This document shows positions 6,286 to 64,000 of a stretch of DNA of 64,000 nucleotides, piece after piece. Source of the DNA: Nitrososphaerota archaeon (GTDB lineage Archaea; Thermoproteota; Nitrososphaeria; Nitrososphaerales; Nitrosopumilaceae); contig JAGWFT010000002.1 of the NCBI GenBank assembly GCA_028867755.1, positions 192,001 to 256,000 on the forward strand. The letters are read 5' to 3'. Position 1 is the stretch's first letter; each line of letters opens with the position of its first letter. A model generated the notes under the pieces. The model did not search any database. It saw nothing but the letters and a program-made list of their open reading frames with translations, and was not told where the DNA came from. A program made the translations under genes and the position numbers.

Positions 6286-6975
6286 GTGGGCCTTGGAAGC
6301 AGTTGGGGGCAGGTACTTGATGTTCTGGAACAAATAATTCCAGTCTATGACAGGGTCAACTCGTTTATCTCTCTTGGAAAAGATCTAGAGTTTCGAGAGC
6401 GTGGAATACGCGGTAGAGTAAACAAGGGTGACATAGTACTTGATGCAGGTTCTGGGTTTGGCAACATGTCAAAGACTGCCATGAATCTTTGCGAAAATGA
6501 TCTCAAAATAACACTGTATGATCCACTCAGACCAATGTTACAGAACACAGGCAGGTTGTTTGCAAAAACACCAGACCTGACATGTGGCGTGTTTGAACAC
6601 ATTCCATTTAGGGACGAAAACTTTGATGCAGTAATTTGCGGATACTCGTTACGTGACGCAATAAGCCTGCGTATTGCAATATCTGAGATACATCGAGTCC
6701 TAAAAAAGGGAGGAAGATTTGTGATTGTTGATCTAGGCAAGCCAGACAACCCGGTGATAAGGCTAGGTGTATCATTTTATCTACGAGTTGTTTTGCCTGT
6801 GATTGCACTATCGGCAGGTGGAAGACTGGGACTGAAATTTGCAGCACTGTACCACACATACAAACTGTGGCCACAAAATAAAAAACTAGAATTCCTACTT
6901 TTAGAAAAATTTGCAAGAGTTGAATTTGATACTGGGATGATGGGTGGTGCTGTCATAGTTGCCGCTTACAAGTAG
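6286..6975 (+). CDS. Class I SAM methyltransferase, UbiE/MenG-like
   Basis: YDRVNSFISLG, VLDAGSGFG, IPFRDENFDAV, EIHRVLKKGG. Confidence 0.8.
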   Translation: MGLGSSWGQVLDVLEQIIPVYDRVNSFISLGKDLEFRERGIRGRVNKGDIVLDAGSGFGNMSKTAMNLCENDLKITLYDPLRPMLQNTGRLFAKTPDLTCGVFEHIPFRDENFDAVICGYSLRDAISLRIAISEIHRVLKKGGRFVIVDLGKPDNPVIRLGVSFYLRVVLPVIALSAGGRLGLKFAALYHTYKLWPQNKKLEFLLLEKFARVEFDTGMMGGAVIVAAYK

Positions 6976-7014
6976 TCTAAAGCTTTAATTCTGGAAAGCA
7001 CTCAAATCATTTCC

Positions 7015-7371
7015 GTGACAGATTTCTCCCTTACTATAATGGGAAATGACTGGATAATGATAGCATTTGTAGCACTAGTTATGCTGCTTGGAACAAAACG
7101 CATGCCAGAGGCGTCACGAAAAATTGGAAAGATAATGGGGCAATTTAACAAAACAAAAAACATTGTACAAGATGAGATTCAAAAGGCAAAGGGAGACTTT
7201 AGTGTGCCAATACAAGGCCCCGCGGCTTCTGAGAGGCAAAAACTTGAGGTCATGGCAAAAACTCTTGGAATAGATTATGTCAACAAGACCGATGACGATC
7301 TGAGAAATTTGATATCATCAAAGCTTGGGGGGCAAAAGACTAATCAAGGATCTGAACAACCAACGAAATAA
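7015..7371 (+). CDS. tatA: Twin-arginine translocase TatA/TatB family subunit
   Basis: Single N-terminal TM followed by LLGTKRMPEASRKIGK amphipathic helix. Confidence 0.8.
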   Translation: MTDFSLTIMGNDWIMIAFVALVMLLGTKRMPEASRKIGKIMGQFNKTKNIVQDEIQKAKGDFSVPIQGPAASERQKLEVMAKTLGIDYVNKTDDDLRNLISSKLGGQKTNQGSEQPTK

Positions 7372-40493: not shown

Positions 40494-41447
40494 TTATTCT
40501 ATTTGGTCTAATTCCAAGTCAATTTTTATGCTGGCATCTGGCTCGCTCCAATCAAGAACATTCTCCTTTGGAATCATTCCAAGAGGATCGTACTTGTCAA
40601 AACGTGTTTCGCCATCTATTGAAGTCAGCAAAACAACCTTTGATCTTTCTCCATTTGCAACAGACAAGCTGACTCGCGTGCTGTCATTGCTAAATATGCC
40701 GCTGACTGTACTCACCATAGAATTCAAAACACCTATTGGAACTTTGTTACCGCCTACTACATAGAGCAATGCACTCTTGATGCTATTTGGTGGTGCATCC
40801 TCGTAAAGCATCTTAATCGAATCTCTAAGTGATGTTTCAACATCTGGTATGTCTTTGCTTGTTGACAAGATGTTTGTTTTAGAAGGCAAGGATGAATTTT
40901 TCAGAGTGGACACAACATGCATCAAAGCACTGTTTGTGATAACATGACAGGCATCAGGAGTAAGATCTGGATTACTGTCAAGTAATGCATCGTTATCAAT
41001 GATTATTGTACAATCTGAATTTGCTTTCAGTCTCTTCAATGAAACTCCTGAGAAGAAAATTCTATCCTTTTCGAACTTGAATGGCATTATTCCAAATGAA
41101 AGTATGCTCTTTCCTAGTTCTTTGCCAATCTGGGATACCACCGGGGCTAAAGCAGCGCCAGACTTGCCTGCTAGGTTAGCTACAATCATGATTGTAGAAT
41201 AGGATTCTAGTCTTTCAGCAATAGAGTTTCTAACGCCAAGTGAGATGCCTCTGATGAGATATGCTGATGGATTGAGAATAGGACTTGTGTTTATCAAGAT
41301 CTTGGATGACTCGTGGTTTAGGTCCTTTGGGTCATGGCTTATTAGAAGACAATCGCATCCAAGTTCTTCCTTTATACTTGTAGCAATTCTGGAACCAGCT
41401 CCACCTAATCCAACAACTAAGATTGAATCTTGCATCTGAAATTCCAT
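40494..41447 (-). CDS. ftsZ: Degenerate FtsZ-family protein (thaumarchaeal FtsZ-like)
   Basis: VVGLGGAG (T1), MPFKFE (T5), IIDNDALL (T6); T4 decayed to AGKSG. Confidence 0.75.
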   Translation of the reverse strand: MEFQMQDSILVVGLGGAGSRIATSIKEELGCDCLLISHDPKDLNHESSKILINTSPILNPSAYLIRGISLGVRNSIAERLESYSTIMIVANLAGKSGAALAPVVSQIGKELGKSILSFGIMPFKFEKDRIFFSGVSLKRLKANSDCTIIIDNDALLDSNPDLTPDACHVITNSALMHVVSTLKNSSLPSKTNILSTSKDIPDVETSLRDSIKMLYEDAPPNSIKSALLYVVGGNKVPIGVLNSMVSTVSGIFSNDSTRVSLSVANGERSKVVLLTSIDGETRFDKYDPLGMIPKENVLDWSEPDASIKIDLELDQIE

Positions 41448-60282: not shown

Positions 60283-61563
60283 ATGGTTGACATAAGCATA
60301 GGGTCATTGTTTAGGACAGAATGGATTCTTCCAATCTTTCTTGGCATGATCTTCCTTGCTTCGTTACTTGCAAAAAAAGTACGATTGCCATACACCATTA
60401 TTCTTGTAGGTATAGGAATAGCGGTATCTTTTATTCACATATCAGGCTTTGGCATATTTGATACCTCGAAATTTCATGTAGATCCAAAGCTAATTTTGTA
60501 TTTTATTGTGCCACCTTTAATCTATGAAGCCATGATGAAAATAGATCGAGAACAATTCAAAACAGTACGAATTTCATCATTACTACTTGCTACGCTTGGC
60601 GTGGTGCTTGCAACAATAGTTGGGGGATTTCTGCTATCATACGTTGCAGGTTTGCCTATAATTGTCGCATTTGCATTTTCTGCTTTGATTGCACCAACTG
60701 ATGCTGCAATTGTAATCCAAGTTTTCAACAAAGTCAAGGTGCCAAGAGCATTAACAATGCTCATGGAATCAGAAGCCAGCTTCAATGATGCTACAGGTCT
60801 TGTCATTTTTTCCTCTATTATTGCAATAGCTGCAGCTCAAGGGTCTACATTGGGCTCACCGGAGACCATTGGACAGATAAATGTCAATATTCTAGAGCAG
60901 ATGGGGCATTTTGCTGTTGTATTTTTTGGTGGAATAGCTGTTGGTCTTGGCTTTGCACTGGGCGCAAGGTTCCTCTTCAGGCTTATGGACGAGCCATTTT
61001 CAGAGACTGCTCTTTCTGTTGCTGTATTGTTTGGTTCTGTAGTTGTTGCAAATGCACTACAACTTTCTGGTCTTGTTGCAGCAGCTGCCTCTGGTCTATA
61101 TTTTGGCAATCTGGTTATGAAAGGAAAAGGAATCATGAGCGAAAAAACACTGATGTACAGTTCTCACTTTTGGGAGATGATTGCCTTTTTTGCAAACTCG
61201 GTGGCTTTCTTGTATCTTGGATTGAGCATGGATATACAAAACATGGGAAGAAATCTGCCTCTCATTGCAATGGCATTTGGTGCAGTGCTAGCCGCACGCG
61301 CCGCATCTACATACCCAATACTTGCAGCAACTCACAGATTTACCCATGAAAAATGGCCCAGTGCATGGAGACATGTGGTGATGATAGGAGGTATGAGGGG
61401 CGCATTGTCTGTTGCACTTGTGGCAACTCTTCCAGACAGCAATTTCAAGGATATTTTAGAACCTATAACATTCGGCGTTGTACTCTCGTCTCTGATAGTT
61501 CAATACCCACTGCTAACAAGATACATCAAAAAAGCATTCCCAGAAAGTGCAGTGTCTCAATAA
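60283..61563 (+). CDS. CPA1 Na+(K+)/H+ antiporter (NhaP/NhaG-like)
   Basis: IAPTDAA, ESEASFNDATG, LSGLVA, GGMRGALSVAL. Confidence 0.9.
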   Translation: MVDISIGSLFRTEWILPIFLGMIFLASLLAKKVRLPYTIILVGIGIAVSFIHISGFGIFDTSKFHVDPKLILYFIVPPLIYEAMMKIDREQFKTVRISSLLLATLGVVLATIVGGFLLSYVAGLPIIVAFAFSALIAPTDAAIVIQVFNKVKVPRALTMLMESEASFNDATGLVIFSSIIAIAAAQGSTLGSPETIGQINVNILEQMGHFAVVFFGGIAVGLGFALGARFLFRLMDEPFSETALSVAVLFGSVVVANALQLSGLVAAAASGLYFGNLVMKGKGIMSEKTLMYSSHFWEMIAFFANSVAFLYLGLSMDIQNMGRNLPLIAMAFGAVLAARAASTYPILAATHRFTHEKWPSAWRHVVMIGGMRGALSVALVATLPDSNFKDILEPITFGVVLSSLIVQYPLLTRYIKKAFPESAVSQ

Positions 61564-61604
61564 ATAATCAAATAATATATCGATACTATTCACATAGTAC
61601 TAGA

Positions 61605-62417
61605 TTGACACAAAACACAAACGAGTCTAATGGAATGGTATTGGAAGGCAAGAGTTATGCCCATCTAGGAAAGCACAAGGATGCTGTATCTTTTTTTGAC
61701 AAGGCATTAAAGGGAGATCCACAAAATATGGATGCGTTATATAACAAAGGGTTATCACTTGTTCAACTAAAGAAAAACAAGGACGCTGTGGCGTGTTTTG
61801 AAAAAATACTTGAGAAAGACCCAAACCATGTGTTGGCTTTGAACAACTTGGGAAACTCGTATGCTGAACAACAACAATTTGAACGTGCGATAGGATTCTA
61901 CGAAAAGGCATTAAAAGTAGATCCAAGTTATGTACCAGTTATCTACAACAAAGGTATTGCCGATATAGGAATTGGAAAATACGATGAAGCCCTGCGATGT
62001 TTCAATCAAGCTCTATCTGTTGAACCTGGAAATGTCTCTGCCATGTACTTTAAGGGTCTTGTACTTGGAAAACAGAAAAAACATGATGATGCATTGCTGT
62101 GTTTTGACAAGGTAATAGAAAAAGAACCAGAAAATATCGAAGCGTTGTTTTACAAGGCTACTAGTATTGCAGAGCTTGGAAGACACCAAGATGCAATTAT
62201 ACTATTTGATACAGTCCTAAAAGATAATCCAAAAAATGGTACAGTGATCTATTCCAAGGCAAGGAGTAAAGCAGAGCTTGGTGAAGACCGTGAGGCCCTT
62301 GAATTACTTGCGCAGGCGATATTGTACTATGGAAAGACAATAAAGGGATGGGCAGTCAAGGACTCGGCATTTAATAGACTAAAAGATGATTTACGATTCA
62401 AGGCAGTTGTGAAGTAA
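61605..62417 (+). CDS. TPR-repeat protein
   Basis: About 7 TPRs (ALYNKG, ALNNLG, IYNKG, MYFKG, LFYKA) and terminal D..F..L.DD.RF motif; the ORF-track start at 61353 overlaps the antiporter, so TTG 61605 or ATG 61635 is preferred. Confidence 0.88.
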   Translation: MTQNTNESNGMVLEGKSYAHLGKHKDAVSFFDKALKGDPQNMDALYNKGLSLVQLKKNKDAVACFEKILEKDPNHVLALNNLGNSYAEQQQFERAIGFYEKALKVDPSYVPVIYNKGIADIGIGKYDEALRCFNQALSVEPGNVSAMYFKGLVLGKQKKHDDALLCFDKVIEKEPENIEALFYKATSIAELGRHQDAIILFDTVLKDNPKNGTVIYSKARSKAELGEDREALELLAQAILYYGKTIKGWAVKDSAFNRLKDDLRFKAVVK

Positions 62418-62420
62418 TAC

Positions 62421-62717
62421 ATGTCAGAAGAGTTTCTAAAAGATGTGAAAATACTGCTTGTTTCTGGTAAGGGTGATACAGCAAGGTTACGAGAAATAAT
62501 AGATTTCATAAAACAAAAACATCCAGTATACATGTCAGATTACAAATATGTTCAAAGCCTAATTTCTGTAGAATCCCAAGAAAACAAGACAGAAACCAAA
62601 CCCCCCGAGGGAGTAAAAGTAGACAATCCTGTAGAACTTCTCAGAATAAGACTTGCAGAAGGGAAAATAACAATCGATGAATTCAGAGAGCTAAAAAAAG
62701 CTATAACTGAAATCTAG
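62421..62717 (+). CDS. Hypothetical protein with C-terminal SHOCT-like motif
   Basis: Tail NPVELLRIRLAEGKITIDEFRELKKAI. Confidence 0.7.
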   Translation: MSEEFLKDVKILLVSGKGDTARLREIIDFIKQKHPVYMSDYKYVQSLISVESQENKTETKPPEGVKVDNPVELLRIRLAEGKITIDEFRELKKAITEI

Positions 62718-62896: not shown

Positions 62897-64000
62897 TTGT
62901 CCAATCTTAATGCTCCTCTACCACCAGCGCCGGTTCTAATGACCTGTTTTGGCCATTGTGGGATAGGTCTAGGTGCAGAGGCATACAGACGATTGTTAAT
63001 TGATGTAGGAGCTGATCCTCTCAAGCCTACGCTAAAAGGAGAGAAGGAGGAGTCACGAGTTTTGAAAAGATACGGCAGTACAATTTTGAGATTTCCAAAT
63101 TCTTATGGAGGAAACGATATACCACTAATTCCAAGAGCATTATTGGTTGATTTAGACCCACGAGCCGCTAATTTGATACTCCAATCATATCCTGATCTGT
63201 TTGCACTAAGAGACAAACATGTAATTCATGGATCTGGAGGAGCTGCAAGAAACTGGGCAGAAGGAAGAAGCAGATTCATCAATGAAGTAACTAAAAAGTT
63301 TGACTTGCAAAAACAATTGTCAGGGTTGTCACCTGAACCAGTGAGAGGTTTTACGATACCATTTGCAATGGGTGGGGGTACTGGAAGCTCCTTTGCCAGT
63401 GCATTTATGCAATACATCAAGAAAGATACCAAAGAGCATGCAACAATAGCATCGTTTGGGCTGTTGCCCGAATTTGGCTGGGATCCAGTTATCTTTGAAG
63501 CTGCAGCAATTAATATAGTCATGAATCTTGAGCACCAGATAAAATATAGTGACTGTTCTATTCTGTTTTCAAACAAGAAGCTAAGAGAGCTTGCCCACAG
63601 GCATGAGAAAAAGATTGAGAAGATACAGTCCATCATTGATGATCTTCCAAAGGAGCATGAGATTGGCTGGAAAGACTACAAAGGTATGAACCTGATTGCC
63701 GCAAATGCAATATCCATGTTTATTGCATCATTTGCAAGAGAGACAGAATGGGACATGTCAAACTATAGGACATGGCTTGCAACAAAGAAACCAAGATTTG
63801 CAGTAGCATGGGTAATTCCAGTAGTTCCAGAAGAAAGGCAGTGGGGAACAGAGCTAATGTCAGGAGGAAAGGGAAACACTATGGAAGCAATTGTAGATAA
63901 TATTCACAAGAAAGAGGATGCAGTGTTGTTTGACATTGATGAAGGCGATGTCAGAGACAAAGGAGGACAGCGTGATTCCTGTGTCGCGCTGGTAAAAATT
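62897..64000 (+). CDS. Tubulin-like GTPase (artubulin-like), 3' end beyond the window (not in ORF track)
   Basis: Open frame from TTG 62897 to the edge (368 codons): FGHCG (T1), PRALLVDLDP (T2), GAARNWAEG (T3), GGGTGSS (T4), SDCSILFSNKKL (T6), YKGMNLIAANAISMFIASF, WDMSNYRTWL..KPRF. Confidence 0.88.
   Translation, partial: MSNLNAPLPPAPVLMTCFGHCGIGLGAEAYRRLLIDVGADPLKPTLKGEKEESRVLKRYGSTILRFPNSYGGNDIPLIPRALLVDLDPRAANLILQSYPDLFALRDKHVIHGSGGAARNWAEGRSRFINEVTKKFDLQKQLSGLSPEPVRGFTIPFAMGGGTGSSFASAFMQYIKKDTKEHATIASFGLLPEFGWDPVIFEAAAINIVMNLEHQIKYSDCSILFSNKKLRELAHRHEKKIEKIQSIIDDLPKEHEIGWKDYKGMNLIAANAISMFIASFARETEWDMSNYRTWLATKKPRFAVAWVIPVVPEERQWGTELMSGGKGNTMEAIVDNIHKKEDAVLFDIDEGDVRDKGGQRDSCVALVKI

What the first reader, a model, noticed from the sequence alone, without database searches (positions are those of the whole stretch)
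62897..64000. Hidden eukaryote-type tubulin homologue at the window edge
The ORF track missed it because the frame runs off the window. The motifs follow tubulin rather than FtsZ/CetZ: FGHCG (cf. GQCG), IPRALLVDLDP (cf. VPRAVLVDLEP), GAARNWAEG (cf. GAGNNWAKG), GGGTGS, SDCSILFSNKKL (cf. DNEAL), YKGMNLIAANAISMFIASF (cf. YTNLNRLISQIVSSITASL) and WDMSNYRTWL..KPRF (cf. DLTEFQTNLVPYPR). Artubulins have been reported from Nitrosarchaeum near an ESCRT-III gene. This copy has many substitutions plus insertions (after H1, and a charged HRHEKKIEKIQSIIDDLPKEHE insert before H7), so it may be a distinct archaeal tubulin lineage and the first gene of an uncharacterised cytoskeletal operon.
Basis: partly seen in the sequence, partly recalled or inferred. 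Interest (0 to 1): 0.9.

Follow-up and report, generated by a model that had tools for sequence, protein, structure and literature searches.

The report
Nitrosotalea artubulin with conserved partner gene
The open frame at the window edge is a real, intact tubulin-family gene, but it is the Nitrosotalea copy of the already published thaumarchaeal "artubulin", not a new lineage; the less ordinary point is that a small uncharacterised hairpin-protein gene follows it in every artubulin locus examined.

Summary
Window 62897-64000 (+) is the first 368 codons of an intact 464-aa gene that ends 1,291 nt past the window, with no frameshift. It matches Pfam Tubulin (64.8 bits). Its best solved-structure matches are Asgard, gamma, beta, alpha and Odin tubulins. 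A confident model aligns to tubulins at Z 37.5-39.8, CetZ at about 30, FtsZ at 24 and TubZ/PhuZ at 19-22.

The "distinct lineage" reading is not supported. The genome is Candidatus Nitrosotalea. The protein is 85% identical to the N. devanaterra orthologue, about 80% to Nitrosotenuis copies and 76% to a Nitrosarchaeum cluster. It nests inside one artubulin clade (support 100).

Three points beyond the finding:
- A 181-186-aa hairpin-protein gene lies 2-18 nt downstream in 78 of 80 loci and in every deeper lineage checked. The published Snf7 neighbour is an upstream gene seen only in Nitrosarchaeum-type genomes.
- The T7 position of the catalytic alpha-tubulin Glu254 is an invariant Asn.
- One Nitrosotalea genome has deleted the module cleanly.

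Binding of the partner, polymerisation and GTPase activity are untested. First-stage notes of this scan on this genome had already flagged the partner gene and the T7 change.

The parts
62897..64000 (+). Artubulin gene, codons 1-368 of 464. The gene continues beyond the window to G000:C35:256291, which is 1,291 nt past the window end.
   Evidence: intact ORF; PF00091, 64.8 bits; tubulins are the best sequence and structure matches; orthology with artubulins.
62951..62962 (+). T1 loop G19-H-C-G22 (tubulin GQCG); G19, H20 and G22 are invariant in the artubulins aligned.
63371..63391 (+). T4 G-box GGGTGSS (residues 159-165; tubulin GGGTGSG). GGGTG is invariant and the last Gly is replaced by Ser or Ala.
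63587..63670 (+). H6-H7 region (residues 231-258) holding the 17-residue artubulin-specific insertion, with invariant S245, I246, D248, L250 and W258 and nearly invariant P251.
   Evidence: 38 against 21 residues between anchors, the same in all artubulins; invariant columns; short helices, pLDDT about 76-96.
63737..63766 (+). T7 loop/H8 start RETEWDMSNY (residues 281-290). It is 2-3 residues shorter than in tubulins. D286 aligns with alpha-tubulin D251. N289 (63761-63763) aligns with the catalytic alpha-E254 / beta-K254.
   Evidence: columns against alpha-like P0355/P0364 'NVDLTEF' and beta-like P0330 'NADLRKL'; R281 to D286 and S288 to Y290 invariant in 31 artubulins; position 287 is Met or Phe.
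62421..62717 (+). Upstream 98-aa gene with a weak SHOCT-like C-terminus. It is a frequent but not universal upstream neighbour (58 of 80 loci) and was co-deleted with the artubulin in genome G030.
   Evidence: SHOCT E 0.0027, below the cut-off; 58/80; the deletion starts at about its codon 17.

Best explanation
The ORF is the Candidatus Nitrosotalea orthologue of the thaumarchaeal artubulin (Yutin and Koonin 2012), a deep, long-branch member of the tubulin family proper.

Shown: it is a full-length, intact gene under strong purifying selection. It has a tubulin-type GTPase domain, a tubulin-type intermediate domain and two C-terminal helices. It has an artubulin-specific 17-residue H6-H7 insertion and a shortened T7 loop. 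It is always followed, after 2-18 nt, by a gene for a 181-186-aa protein made of a long helical hairpin and a small alpha/beta domain.

Inferred: it binds GTP, because the nucleotide-contact positions in T1, T4, T6 and H7 are kept. It assembles head-to-tail into protofilaments as other family members do. Because the residue that would reach into the next subunit's nucleotide pocket is an invariant Asn instead of the catalytic Glu/Asp, hydrolysis is probably slow or relies on the retained Asp286 or the invariant Glu282/Glu284. That would favour stable rather than dynamically unstable filaments. The co-transcribed hairpin protein most likely acts on the filament as a bundler, stabiliser or membrane/cargo adaptor.

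The module is accessory. It is patchily distributed in Nitrososphaerales and has been deleted in one Nitrosotalea genome.
For: Identity and family:
- Pfam Tubulin, 64.8 bits.
- All of the best 60 PDB sequence matches are tubulins, E 1.5e-18 to 1.5e-10.
- The AlphaFold model has pLDDT 88.1 and pTM 0.91.
- VIA-align gives beta-tubulin Z 39.8 (391 aligned), BtubA 39.6, OdinTubulin 39.4, AtubA/B 38.7, gamma 37.7 and alpha 37.5. CetZ scores 30.0/29.4, FtsZ 24.2 and TubZ/PhuZ 19-22. Only the tubulin alignments run to residue 464.
- An artubulin-only C-terminal profile matches a tubulin C-terminal profile in register: hhalign probability 78.9%, E 1.6e-5, 141 columns.

Orthology:
- 85% identity to N. 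devanaterra, about 80% to Nitrosotenuis and 76% to the Nitrosarchaeum cluster.
- One artubulin clade, SH-aLRT 100.
- Present in 31 of 34 same-genus genomes.

Selection: dN/dS is 0.018-0.049.

Motifs.

Partner:
- Adjacent in 78 of 80 loci; in the other two the contig ends at the artubulin gene.
- Also adjacent in Nitrosarchaeum-type loci and in both deep clades.
- dN/dS 0.06-0.15.

Dispensability: found in 78 of 401 genomes of the order; clean deletion in G030.
Against: - No biochemical, localisation or expression data exist for any artubulin in the papers I could search, and none could be obtained here.
- Pfam Tubulin_C did not match. A plain HMM of the C-terminal half finds no tubulin in the PDB.
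- The structural model was built from an alignment in which 47 of 78 rows were other tubulin-like proteins, so the tubulin-like C-terminal half may be partly imposed.
- Asn119 is kept, but the first Asn of the T3 'GAGNNW' motif is Arg118. The last G-box Gly is Ser. The T7 catalytic acid is missing. The protein could therefore be a poor GTPase or not polymerise at all.
- The partner family also occurs without any artubulin, in genus g9 and in a short form in family f15. The partner is therefore not strictly dedicated to the artubulin.
Confidence: 0.8

Rival explanations
1. It is a distinct, previously unseen archaeal tubulin lineage.
For: It has insertions and substitutions relative to eukaryotic tubulins. 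No paper I could search discusses a Nitrosotalea tubulin as such.
Against: It is 76-85% identical to artubulins of Nitrosarchaeum-type, Nitrosotenuis and N. devanaterra genomes. It is nested in the artubulin clade with support 100. Every indel is shared with the Nitrosarchaeum-type sequence. An artubulin in a second genus was already published in 2013 (PMC3835317).
Confidence: 0.02
2. It is an FtsZ-like, CetZ or TubZ-family protein rather than a tubulin. NCBI names it 'cell division protein FtsZ', and Findeisen et al. 2014 grouped artubulins with TubZ.
For: Source names and PMC4202323. No Pfam Tubulin_C hit. The very long stem branch (1.99 changes per site) leaves its placement among tubulin-like proteins unresolved in my tree and in the 2026 analysis.
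Against: All of the best 60 PDB sequence hits are tubulins. Structural Z is 37.5-39.8 for tubulins against 30 (CetZ), 24 (FtsZ) and 19-22 (TubZ/PhuZ), and only the tubulin alignments cover the last two helices. Anchor spacing matches tubulins within 2 residues at five of the ten intervals measured. The C-terminal profile aligns to the tubulin H11-H12 region. The genome has a separate thaumarchaeal FtsZ-like gene at window 40494-41447. Santana-Molina et al. 2023 reach the same conclusion.
Confidence: 0.05
3. It is a tubulin-fold protein that no longer polymerises dynamically. It would act as a GTP-binding regulator, a gamma-tubulin-like cap or nucleator, or a stable scaffold, and the hairpin protein would be its effector.
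For: The T7 catalytic acid is replaced by an invariant Asn289, as in the non-catalytic beta (Lys) and gamma (Gly) positions. The T7 loop is shortened. The T3 Asn is replaced by Arg118. There is no second artubulin paralogue in this genome to supply a catalytic T7 in trans.
Against: Asp286 (the alpha-D251 equivalent) and two invariant Glu in the T7 loop remain and could support hydrolysis. Conservation is strong across the whole protein, including the M-loop flanks and the H6-H7 insertion, which lie at filament interfaces in tubulins (established tubulin structure knowledge).
Confidence: 0.13

Closest known systems
Artubulins of Candidatus Nitrosoarchaeum koreensis / N. limnia (Yutin and Koonin 2012, PMC3349469) and of Ca. 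Nitrosotenuis uzonensis (PMC3835317)
   Same: Same protein family and orthologue. It is 76% identical to a cluster holding Nitrosarchaeum proteins and about 80% to Nitrosotenuis copies. Length is the same (461-464 aa), the motifs are the same (GHCG, GGAARNW, GGGTGSS, RETEWD.SNY), the indels are the same, and the hairpin-protein gene downstream is the same.
   Different: The genus is different (Nitrosotalea). There is no CdvB/Snf7 gene beside it, as in Nitrosotenuis. Snf7 linkage was seen only in the Nitrosarchaeum-type genomes, where the CdvB paralogue lies upstream on the same strand.
Eukaryotic alpha/beta/gamma-tubulins and their closest prokaryotic relatives (BtubA/B, OdinTubulin, Asgard AtubA/B)
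   Same: The overall three-part fold, including the two C-terminal helices (Z 37.5-39.8, 391-403 residues aligned). T1, T2, T4, T6 and H7 nucleotide-contact motifs fall in the same columns.
   Different: Only 17-21% identity. There is a 17-residue H6-H7 insertion, a longer H1-S2 loop and a T7 loop 2-3 residues shorter with Asn at the Glu254 position. There is no acidic C-terminal tail. There is a 12-residue Pro-rich N-terminal extension. It is a single gene rather than an A/B pair. Pfam Tubulin_C does not match.
CetZ (archaeal tubulin/FtsZ-like cell-shape proteins)
   Same: An archaeal, accessory tubulin-superfamily paralogue that coexists with an FtsZ-type gene. It is the next-best structural match (Z 30.0 and 29.4).
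   Different: The CetZ alignments cover 314-318 residues and stop at residue 439. They lack the last helix and score about 9 Z units lower than tubulins. No CetZ appears among the best 60 PDB sequence matches.
Accessory proteins encoded beside other prokaryotic tubulin-superfamily genes (BtubC with BtubA/B; TubR/TubY with TubZ; ZapA/SepF with FtsZ)
   Same: A small non-enzymatic protein is encoded next to the filament gene. Here it follows after 4 nt and has a coiled-coil element. This comparison rests on established knowledge of those systems.
   Different: There is no detectable sequence or fold relationship to any of them. The partner has no Pfam family. Foldseek gives nothing better than E 0.13. 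The hairpin ties with many unrelated hairpins at Z 9-10. Binding to the artubulin is not shown.

Membership tests
Tubulin family proper (alpha-zeta, BtubA/B, Odin/Asgard tubulins) | Tubulin/FtsZ GTPase domain (Pfam PF00091) above the curated threshold | tested here: met
   64.8 bits against a cut-off of 33, residues 16-232.
Tubulin family proper (alpha-zeta, BtubA/B, Odin/Asgard tubulins) | G-box GGGTGSG and the T1/T2/T6/H7 nucleotide-contact residues in register | tested here: met
   GGGTGSS, GHCG, DLDP, N226 and Y261...N265 fall in the same columns as alpha- and beta-like representatives. Deviations: Q to H in T1, N to R118 in T3, and the last G to S in T4.
Tubulin family proper (alpha-zeta, BtubA/B, Odin/Asgard tubulins) | Closer to tubulins than to FtsZ, CetZ or TubZ in sequence and structure | tested here: met
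   All of the best 60 PDB sequence hits are tubulins. Z is 37.5-39.8 against 30, 24 and 19-22. Caveat: the alignment used for the model contained tubulins.
Tubulin family proper (alpha-zeta, BtubA/B, Odin/Asgard tubulins) | Tubulin C-terminal domain recognised by Pfam Tubulin_C (PF03953) | tested here: not met
   No hit at E up to 1 or 0.1. An HMM of the C-terminal half finds no tubulin in the PDB.
Tubulin family proper (alpha-zeta, BtubA/B, Odin/Asgard tubulins) | Tubulin-type intermediate domain plus the two C-terminal surface helices (H11, H12) | tested here: met
   The model has helices 417-442 and 448-463, aligned to tubulin chains through residue 464. An artubulin-only profile aligns in register with the tubulin H11-H12 region, probability 78.9%, E 1.6e-5. 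Support is moderate, not decisive.
Tubulin family proper (alpha-zeta, BtubA/B, Odin/Asgard tubulins) | GTP-dependent assembly into protofilaments | not testable with these tools
   Needs purified protein or imaging in cells. No such data were found in the papers searched.
Artubulin (thaumarchaeal tubulin, Yutin and Koonin 2012) | Orthology with the Nitrosarchaeum proteins | tested here: met
   76% identity over the full length to cluster P0083, whose named members are Nitrosarchaeum sp. proteins. One clade, support 100. I did not have the N. koreense/limnia accessions themselves.
Artubulin (thaumarchaeal tubulin, Yutin and Koonin 2012) | Family-specific characters: RETEWD.SNY T7, GGAARNW T3, the 17-residue H6-H7 insertion, length of about 450-464 aa | tested here: met
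   These are invariant across 31 sequences down to 52% identity, and anchor spacing is identical.
Artubulin (thaumarchaeal tubulin, Yutin and Koonin 2012) | Adjacent Snf7/CdvB gene (as reported for Nitrosarchaeum) | tested here: not met
   This genome's two PF03357 matches are on contig C24. The linkage is present only in the Nitrosarchaeum-type genomes examined, so it does not define the family.
FtsZ / CetZ | FtsZ-type C-terminal domain and best similarity to FtsZ/CetZ | tested here: not met
   No FtsZ_C hit among the Pfam results. CetZ and FtsZ score 8-16 Z units below tubulins with shorter alignments. A separate FtsZ-like gene exists at window 40494-41447.
ESCRT-III / Snf7 (considered for the downstream partner) | Sequence membership (Pfam PF03357, or similarity to the genome's own CdvB) | tested here: not met
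   No Snf7 hit for the partner or three orthologues at E up to 0.1. A genome-wide PF03357 search does not find it. hhalign against the genome's own CdvB gives probability 0.5%.
ESCRT-III / Snf7 (considered for the downstream partner) | ESCRT-III core fold (alpha1-alpha2 hairpin plus packed helices 3-5) | tested here: inconclusive
   The hairpin (residues 4-94) aligns to the CHMP4B hairpin at Z 9.8 (rmsd 2.2, 76 residues) and the Snf7 core at Z 9.1. It ties with SMC, p85, seryl-tRNA synthetase and prefoldin hairpins. The rest of the model is alpha/beta and of low confidence.

The most novel reading that the evidence does not exclude
The artubulin and the hairpin protein are an ancestral, obligate two-component filament system of Nitrososphaerales. 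The partner, not Snf7, would be the functional companion: it would anchor, bundle or cap artubulin filaments, or supply in trans what the acid-less T7 loop lacks. This would be a tubulin-plus-adaptor module that predates or parallels the eukaryotic tubulin-MAP arrangement.
Probability: 0.3. Interest if true: 0.7.

Novelty: new member of a known kind. Interest (0 to 1): 0.4.

Why it matters
Artubulins are one of very few prokaryotic lineages that sit with tubulins proper. Their placement is still disputed: basal to eukaryotic tubulins, sister to Odin tubulins, or TubZ-like. In the literature I could search, nothing has been reported on their structure, assembly or cellular role.

This window adds no new lineage. 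The survey around it sharpens what should be tested:
- The family is broad and deep in Nitrososphaerales: 22 of 82 genera sampled and three well-supported subclades.
- Its only constant neighbour is an unclassified hairpin protein, not the Snf7 gene on which the published functional hypothesis (cooperation with ESCRT-III in division) was built.
- Its T7 loop lacks the catalytic acid in every member.
- It is dispensable in at least one close relative.

Cultured carriers exist, for example N. devanaterra, so these points can be tested directly.

Tried and rejected
- **Complex prediction of artubulin with the partner:** no verdict (score 0.00, below the mark), so it is neither for nor against binding.
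- **Partner annotation:**
  - Pfam found nothing significant.
  - Foldseek against the PDB found nothing better than E 0.13.
  - The ESM Atlas feature search gave no usable hit.
  - The homologue search returned only 'hypothetical protein' from Thaumarchaeota.
  - VIA-align gave only generic hairpin ties.
- **Snf7 identity of the partner:** rejected on sequence.
- **Snf7/Vps4 or a second tubulin next to the gene in this genome:** not found. The only other PF00091 gene is the FtsZ-like one 21 kb upstream.
- **Rooted placement of artubulins among tubulins:** not achievable here. I had one distant FtsZ-like outgroup and no named CetZ or TubZ sequences, and the relevant nodes collapsed.
- **HMM of the C-terminal half against PDB sequences:** no tubulin hit.
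- **Sigma-70 promoter scan:** not run, because it does not apply to archaea. A 'CTTAAAG' element 33-39 nt upstream of the TTG start was seen by eye only.
- **TPR gene two genes upstream as a BtubC-like partner:** considered and set aside. It is linked in Nitrosotalea-type loci only (50 of 80) and survives the deletion in G030.
Full report
**1. The observation**

An ORF opens at window 62897 (TTG, directly after an in-frame TGA) and runs off the window end. The window is G000:C35:192001-256000.
- On the same contig the frame continues to a stop at C35:256291. The gene is 464 codons, intact and unframeshifted.
- The TTG start is preferred to the ATG 14 codons later. The intervening 'APLPPAPV' stretch is nearly invariant in orthologues that begin with ATG at the equivalent position.

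**2. Family**

- Pfam Tubulin/FtsZ GTPase domain: E 1.7e-17, 64.8 bits, cut-off 33.
- Against PDB sequences, all of the best 60 distinct matches are tubulins: Asgard AtubA/B 1.5e-18 to 3e-16, gamma-tubulin about 1e-12, OdinTubulin 6e-12, and beta and alpha about 1e-10 to 1e-11.
- An exhaustive scan of 1.84 billion representatives found only 14 proteins below 1e-10. These were artubulin pieces, one 54%-identity artubulin representative and a few tubulin-like proteins at about 27% identity. The family is therefore isolated on a long branch.
- An AlphaFold2 model has mean pLDDT 88.1 and pTM 0.91.
- Aligned against about 48,000 PDB cluster representatives, it gives the following:

| Match | Z | Residues aligned |
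|---|---|---|
| beta-tubulin | 39.8 | 391 |
| BtubA | 39.6 | 396 |
| OdinTubulin | 39.4 | 402 |
| AtubA/B | 38.7 | 400 |
| gamma-tubulin | 37.7 | 403 |
| alpha-tubulin | 37.5 | 393 |
| CetZ | 30.0, 29.4 | 314-318 |
| FtsZ | 24.2 | 297 |
| TubZ/PhuZ | 19-22 | 267-335 |

- Only the tubulin alignments extend to residue 464, so only they cover the last two helices.
- Caveat: 47 of the 78 alignment rows used for folding were other tubulin-like proteins, which could bias the C-terminal half.
- As a sequence-only control, I compared an artubulin-only profile of residues 296-464 with a profile of the equivalent part of 20 tubulin-like representatives. hhalign gave probability 78.9%, E 1.6e-5, with 141 columns in register. 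The artubulin 'W..YKEEY.KWGL..EEFKQ' lies on the tubulin 'AFL..Y..EG....EF..A' H11-H12 segment.
- Pfam Tubulin_C does not match, and a plain HMM of this half finds no tubulin in the PDB. Santana-Molina et al. 2023 reported the same negative result.

**3. It is an artubulin, not a new lineage**

- Named records place the genome in Candidatus Nitrosotalea. The closest loci are Nitrosotalea MAGs at 91-94%, and the cultured N. devanaterra (LN890280) carries an orthologue at 85%.
- Nitrosotenuis copies are about 80% identical. A cluster whose named members are Nitrosarchaeum sp. proteins is 76% identical.
- Artubulins were described from Nitrosoarchaeum in 2012 (PMC3349469). One was reported from Nitrosotenuis uzonensis in 2013 at about 79% identity to those (PMC3835317).
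- In a maximum-likelihood tree of 79 rows, the 31 artubulins form one clade (SH-aLRT 100) on a stem of 1.99 changes per site.
- The window's protein lies in a three-row clade with its two closest relatives (support 99), inside a 13-row clade (support 99).
- The clade's position among other tubulin-like proteins collapses. The 2026 Asgard-tubulin study likewise reports that the position of artubulins is never fully resolved.
Spacing between ten anchor residues is identical in Nitrosotalea, Nitrosarchaeum-type and deep-clade artubulins. That includes the 17-residue H6-H7 insertion (38 against 21 residues) and the longer H1-S2 loop.
- Public sources call these proteins 'cell division protein FtsZ' (NCBI) or 'tubulin gamma' (JGI).

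**4. Functional residues**

- Across 31 artubulins down to 52% identity, G19, H20 and G22 of the T1 loop, D85-L-D-P-R89 (T2), G114-G-A-A-R-N-W-A121 (T3), G159-G-G-T-G163 (T4), N226 (T6), and Y261 and N265 (H7) are invariant. They lie in the columns of the corresponding tubulin residues. GTP binding is therefore likely (inference).
- The T7 loop reads R-E-T-E-W-D286-M-S-N289-Y and is 2-3 residues shorter than in tubulins.
- D286 aligns with alpha-tubulin D251. N289 aligns with the catalytic alpha-E254, which is K in beta-like rows. R281 to D286 and S288 to Y290 are invariant; position 287 is Met or Phe.
- From established tubulin and FtsZ enzymology, the T7 acid of one subunit activates hydrolysis in the next. 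An Asn there predicts slow hydrolysis, unless D286 or the invariant E282/E284 substitute. This is inference.
- The protein ends directly after the last helix and has no acidic tail.

**5. Neighbourhood**

- The ORF listed as 193 aa (L002:2266-2847) really starts at its Met11. That start is conserved in all orthologues. The result is a 183-aa gene beginning 4 nt after the artubulin stop, 296 nt beyond the window end.
- A homologue lies 2-18 nt downstream on the same strand in 78 of 80 artubulin loci from named genomes. In the two exceptions the contig ends at the artubulin gene.
- The same holds in Nitrosarchaeum-type metagenome loci and in both deep clades. There the artubulins are 52-59% identical and the partners only 26-31% identical, but homologous over their full length (hhalign 99.8% and 99.2%).
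- Every other neighbour varies.
- The partner has no Pfam family. Every source calls it 'hypothetical protein'.
- Its model (pLDDT 66) is a confident helical hairpin (helices 4-52 and 60-94) followed by a low-confidence alpha/beta part and a terminal helix.
- On sequence it is not ESCRT-III. Pfam Snf7 does not hit it, and hhalign against this genome's CdvB gives 0.5%.
- The hairpin's structural similarity to CHMP4B/Snf7 hairpins (Z 9.1-9.8) ties with many unrelated hairpins and is inconclusive.
- In three genomes of genus g26, which I take to be Nitrosarchaeum, the gene order on one strand is CdvB paralogue (206 aa, 40-43% identical to this genome's CdvB), then artubulin, then partner. I take the published Snf7 neighbour to be this upstream gene. 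It is real but lineage-specific.
- In this genome the two Snf7 matches are on another contig.

**6. Distribution and dispensability**

- In 401 genomes sampled across the order, the artubulin was found in 78, covering 22 of 82 genera. Counts by genus were g1 (Nitrosotalea) 9/10, g23 11/11, g26 7/12 and g24 2/47. It was not found in any of 111 genomes of family f15.
- Within the genus, 31 of 34 genomes had it.
- One 99%-complete Nitrosotalea genome (G030) lacks it. In otherwise perfect synteny, a single deletion runs from about codon 17 of the upstream 98-aa gene to about residue 150 of the partner.
- A profile of the partner finds it in 134 of 401 genomes. In genus g9 (7/7) it is full-length with no artubulin hit. 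In the three g9 loci examined it sits directly downstream of a radical-SAM-like gene. The only PF00091 gene of the one complete g9 genome lies 190 kb away. Family f15 (44/111) has a short 130-150-aa form lacking the first helix. The partner family is therefore older or wider than its association with the artubulin.
- Both genes are under strong purifying selection: dN/dS 0.018-0.049 for the artubulin and 0.063-0.154 for the partner. dS is saturated for most pairs.

**7. Verdict**

- 'Distinct lineage' is wrong. This is a new member, in a further genus, of a published family.
- 'First gene of an uncharacterised cytoskeletal operon' is partly right. It heads a conserved two-gene module whose second gene is unclassified.
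- First-stage notes of this scan on the same genome had flagged the partner gene and the T7 change. I tested both here.

**Unpublished genomes**

The tallies include G010, G011, G017, G026 and G032. Those include G010. No statement in this report rests on these genomes alone.

Noticed in passing
window 40494-41447 (-): The genome's second Tubulin/FtsZ-family gene (317 aa; PF00091, 61.5 bits). Its G-box reads 'NLAGKSGAALAP' rather than GGGTGTG, so this thaumarchaeal FtsZ-like protein may not bind GTP in the usual way.
   Followed up: partly
L129 (G030:C12:33000-47000), about 6856-7027: A Nitrosotalea genome without an artubulin shows one clean deletion that removes most of the 98-aa upstream gene, the whole artubulin and about 150 residues of the partner. 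All flanking genes remain in order.
   Followed up: yes
L124:6090-7766 (also L125, L126): In genus g9 a full-length partner homologue sits 10 nt downstream of a 338-aa radical-SAM-like gene, with no tubulin nearby. A 46-51% identical radical-SAM-like gene also lies just past the partner in two artubulin loci (L033:8425-9339 and L014).
   Followed up: partly
L127:7142-7558 (-) (G128, a complete 2.83-Mb genome of family f15): A 138-aa short form of the partner family lacks the first hairpin helix and sits among housekeeping-type genes. Similar short forms occur in 44 of 111 f15 genomes, none of which has an artubulin.
   Followed up: partly
G054:C69:1315-3235 and G054:C7:11181-13110; G037:C2:8598-9137: One genome (G054) carries two complete artubulin+partner modules. 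Another (G037) has a second partner copy with no artubulin hit beside it.
   Followed up: no
L080 (BMAH01000059.1): A contig deposited as 'Gammaproteobacteria bacterium BBSC-SA02' carries an artubulin (80% identical) and its partner. It is most likely a thaumarchaeal contig mis-binned or mislabelled, not a bacterial artubulin.
   Followed up: no
window 61353-62417 (+): A TPR-repeat protein lies two genes upstream of the artubulin in Nitrosotalea-type loci (50 of 80). This recalls the TPR protein BtubC beside BtubA/B, but the linkage is not family-wide and the gene survives the G030 deletion. The listed 354-aa ORF overlaps the end of the Na+/H+ exchanger gene, so its true start is probably later.
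   Followed up: partly
P0224, P0314, P0336 (representatives): Three other long-branch tubulin-like proteins of 425-459 aa. One cluster is named from a Bathyarchaeota MAG. They share some artubulin-like loop features (Lys at the T3 position in P0224 and P0336; a 'D.V.DP' T5 loop in P0224 and P0314). They may represent further archaeal tubulin-like lineages.
   Followed up: no
window 62897-62938 (residues 1-14): All artubulins carry a roughly 12-residue Pro-rich N-terminal extension ('APL(P/A)P(A/N)PV', nearly invariant) ahead of strand S1, which tubulins lack. It is disordered in the model (pLDDT below 50) and could be a short binding motif.
   Followed up: no
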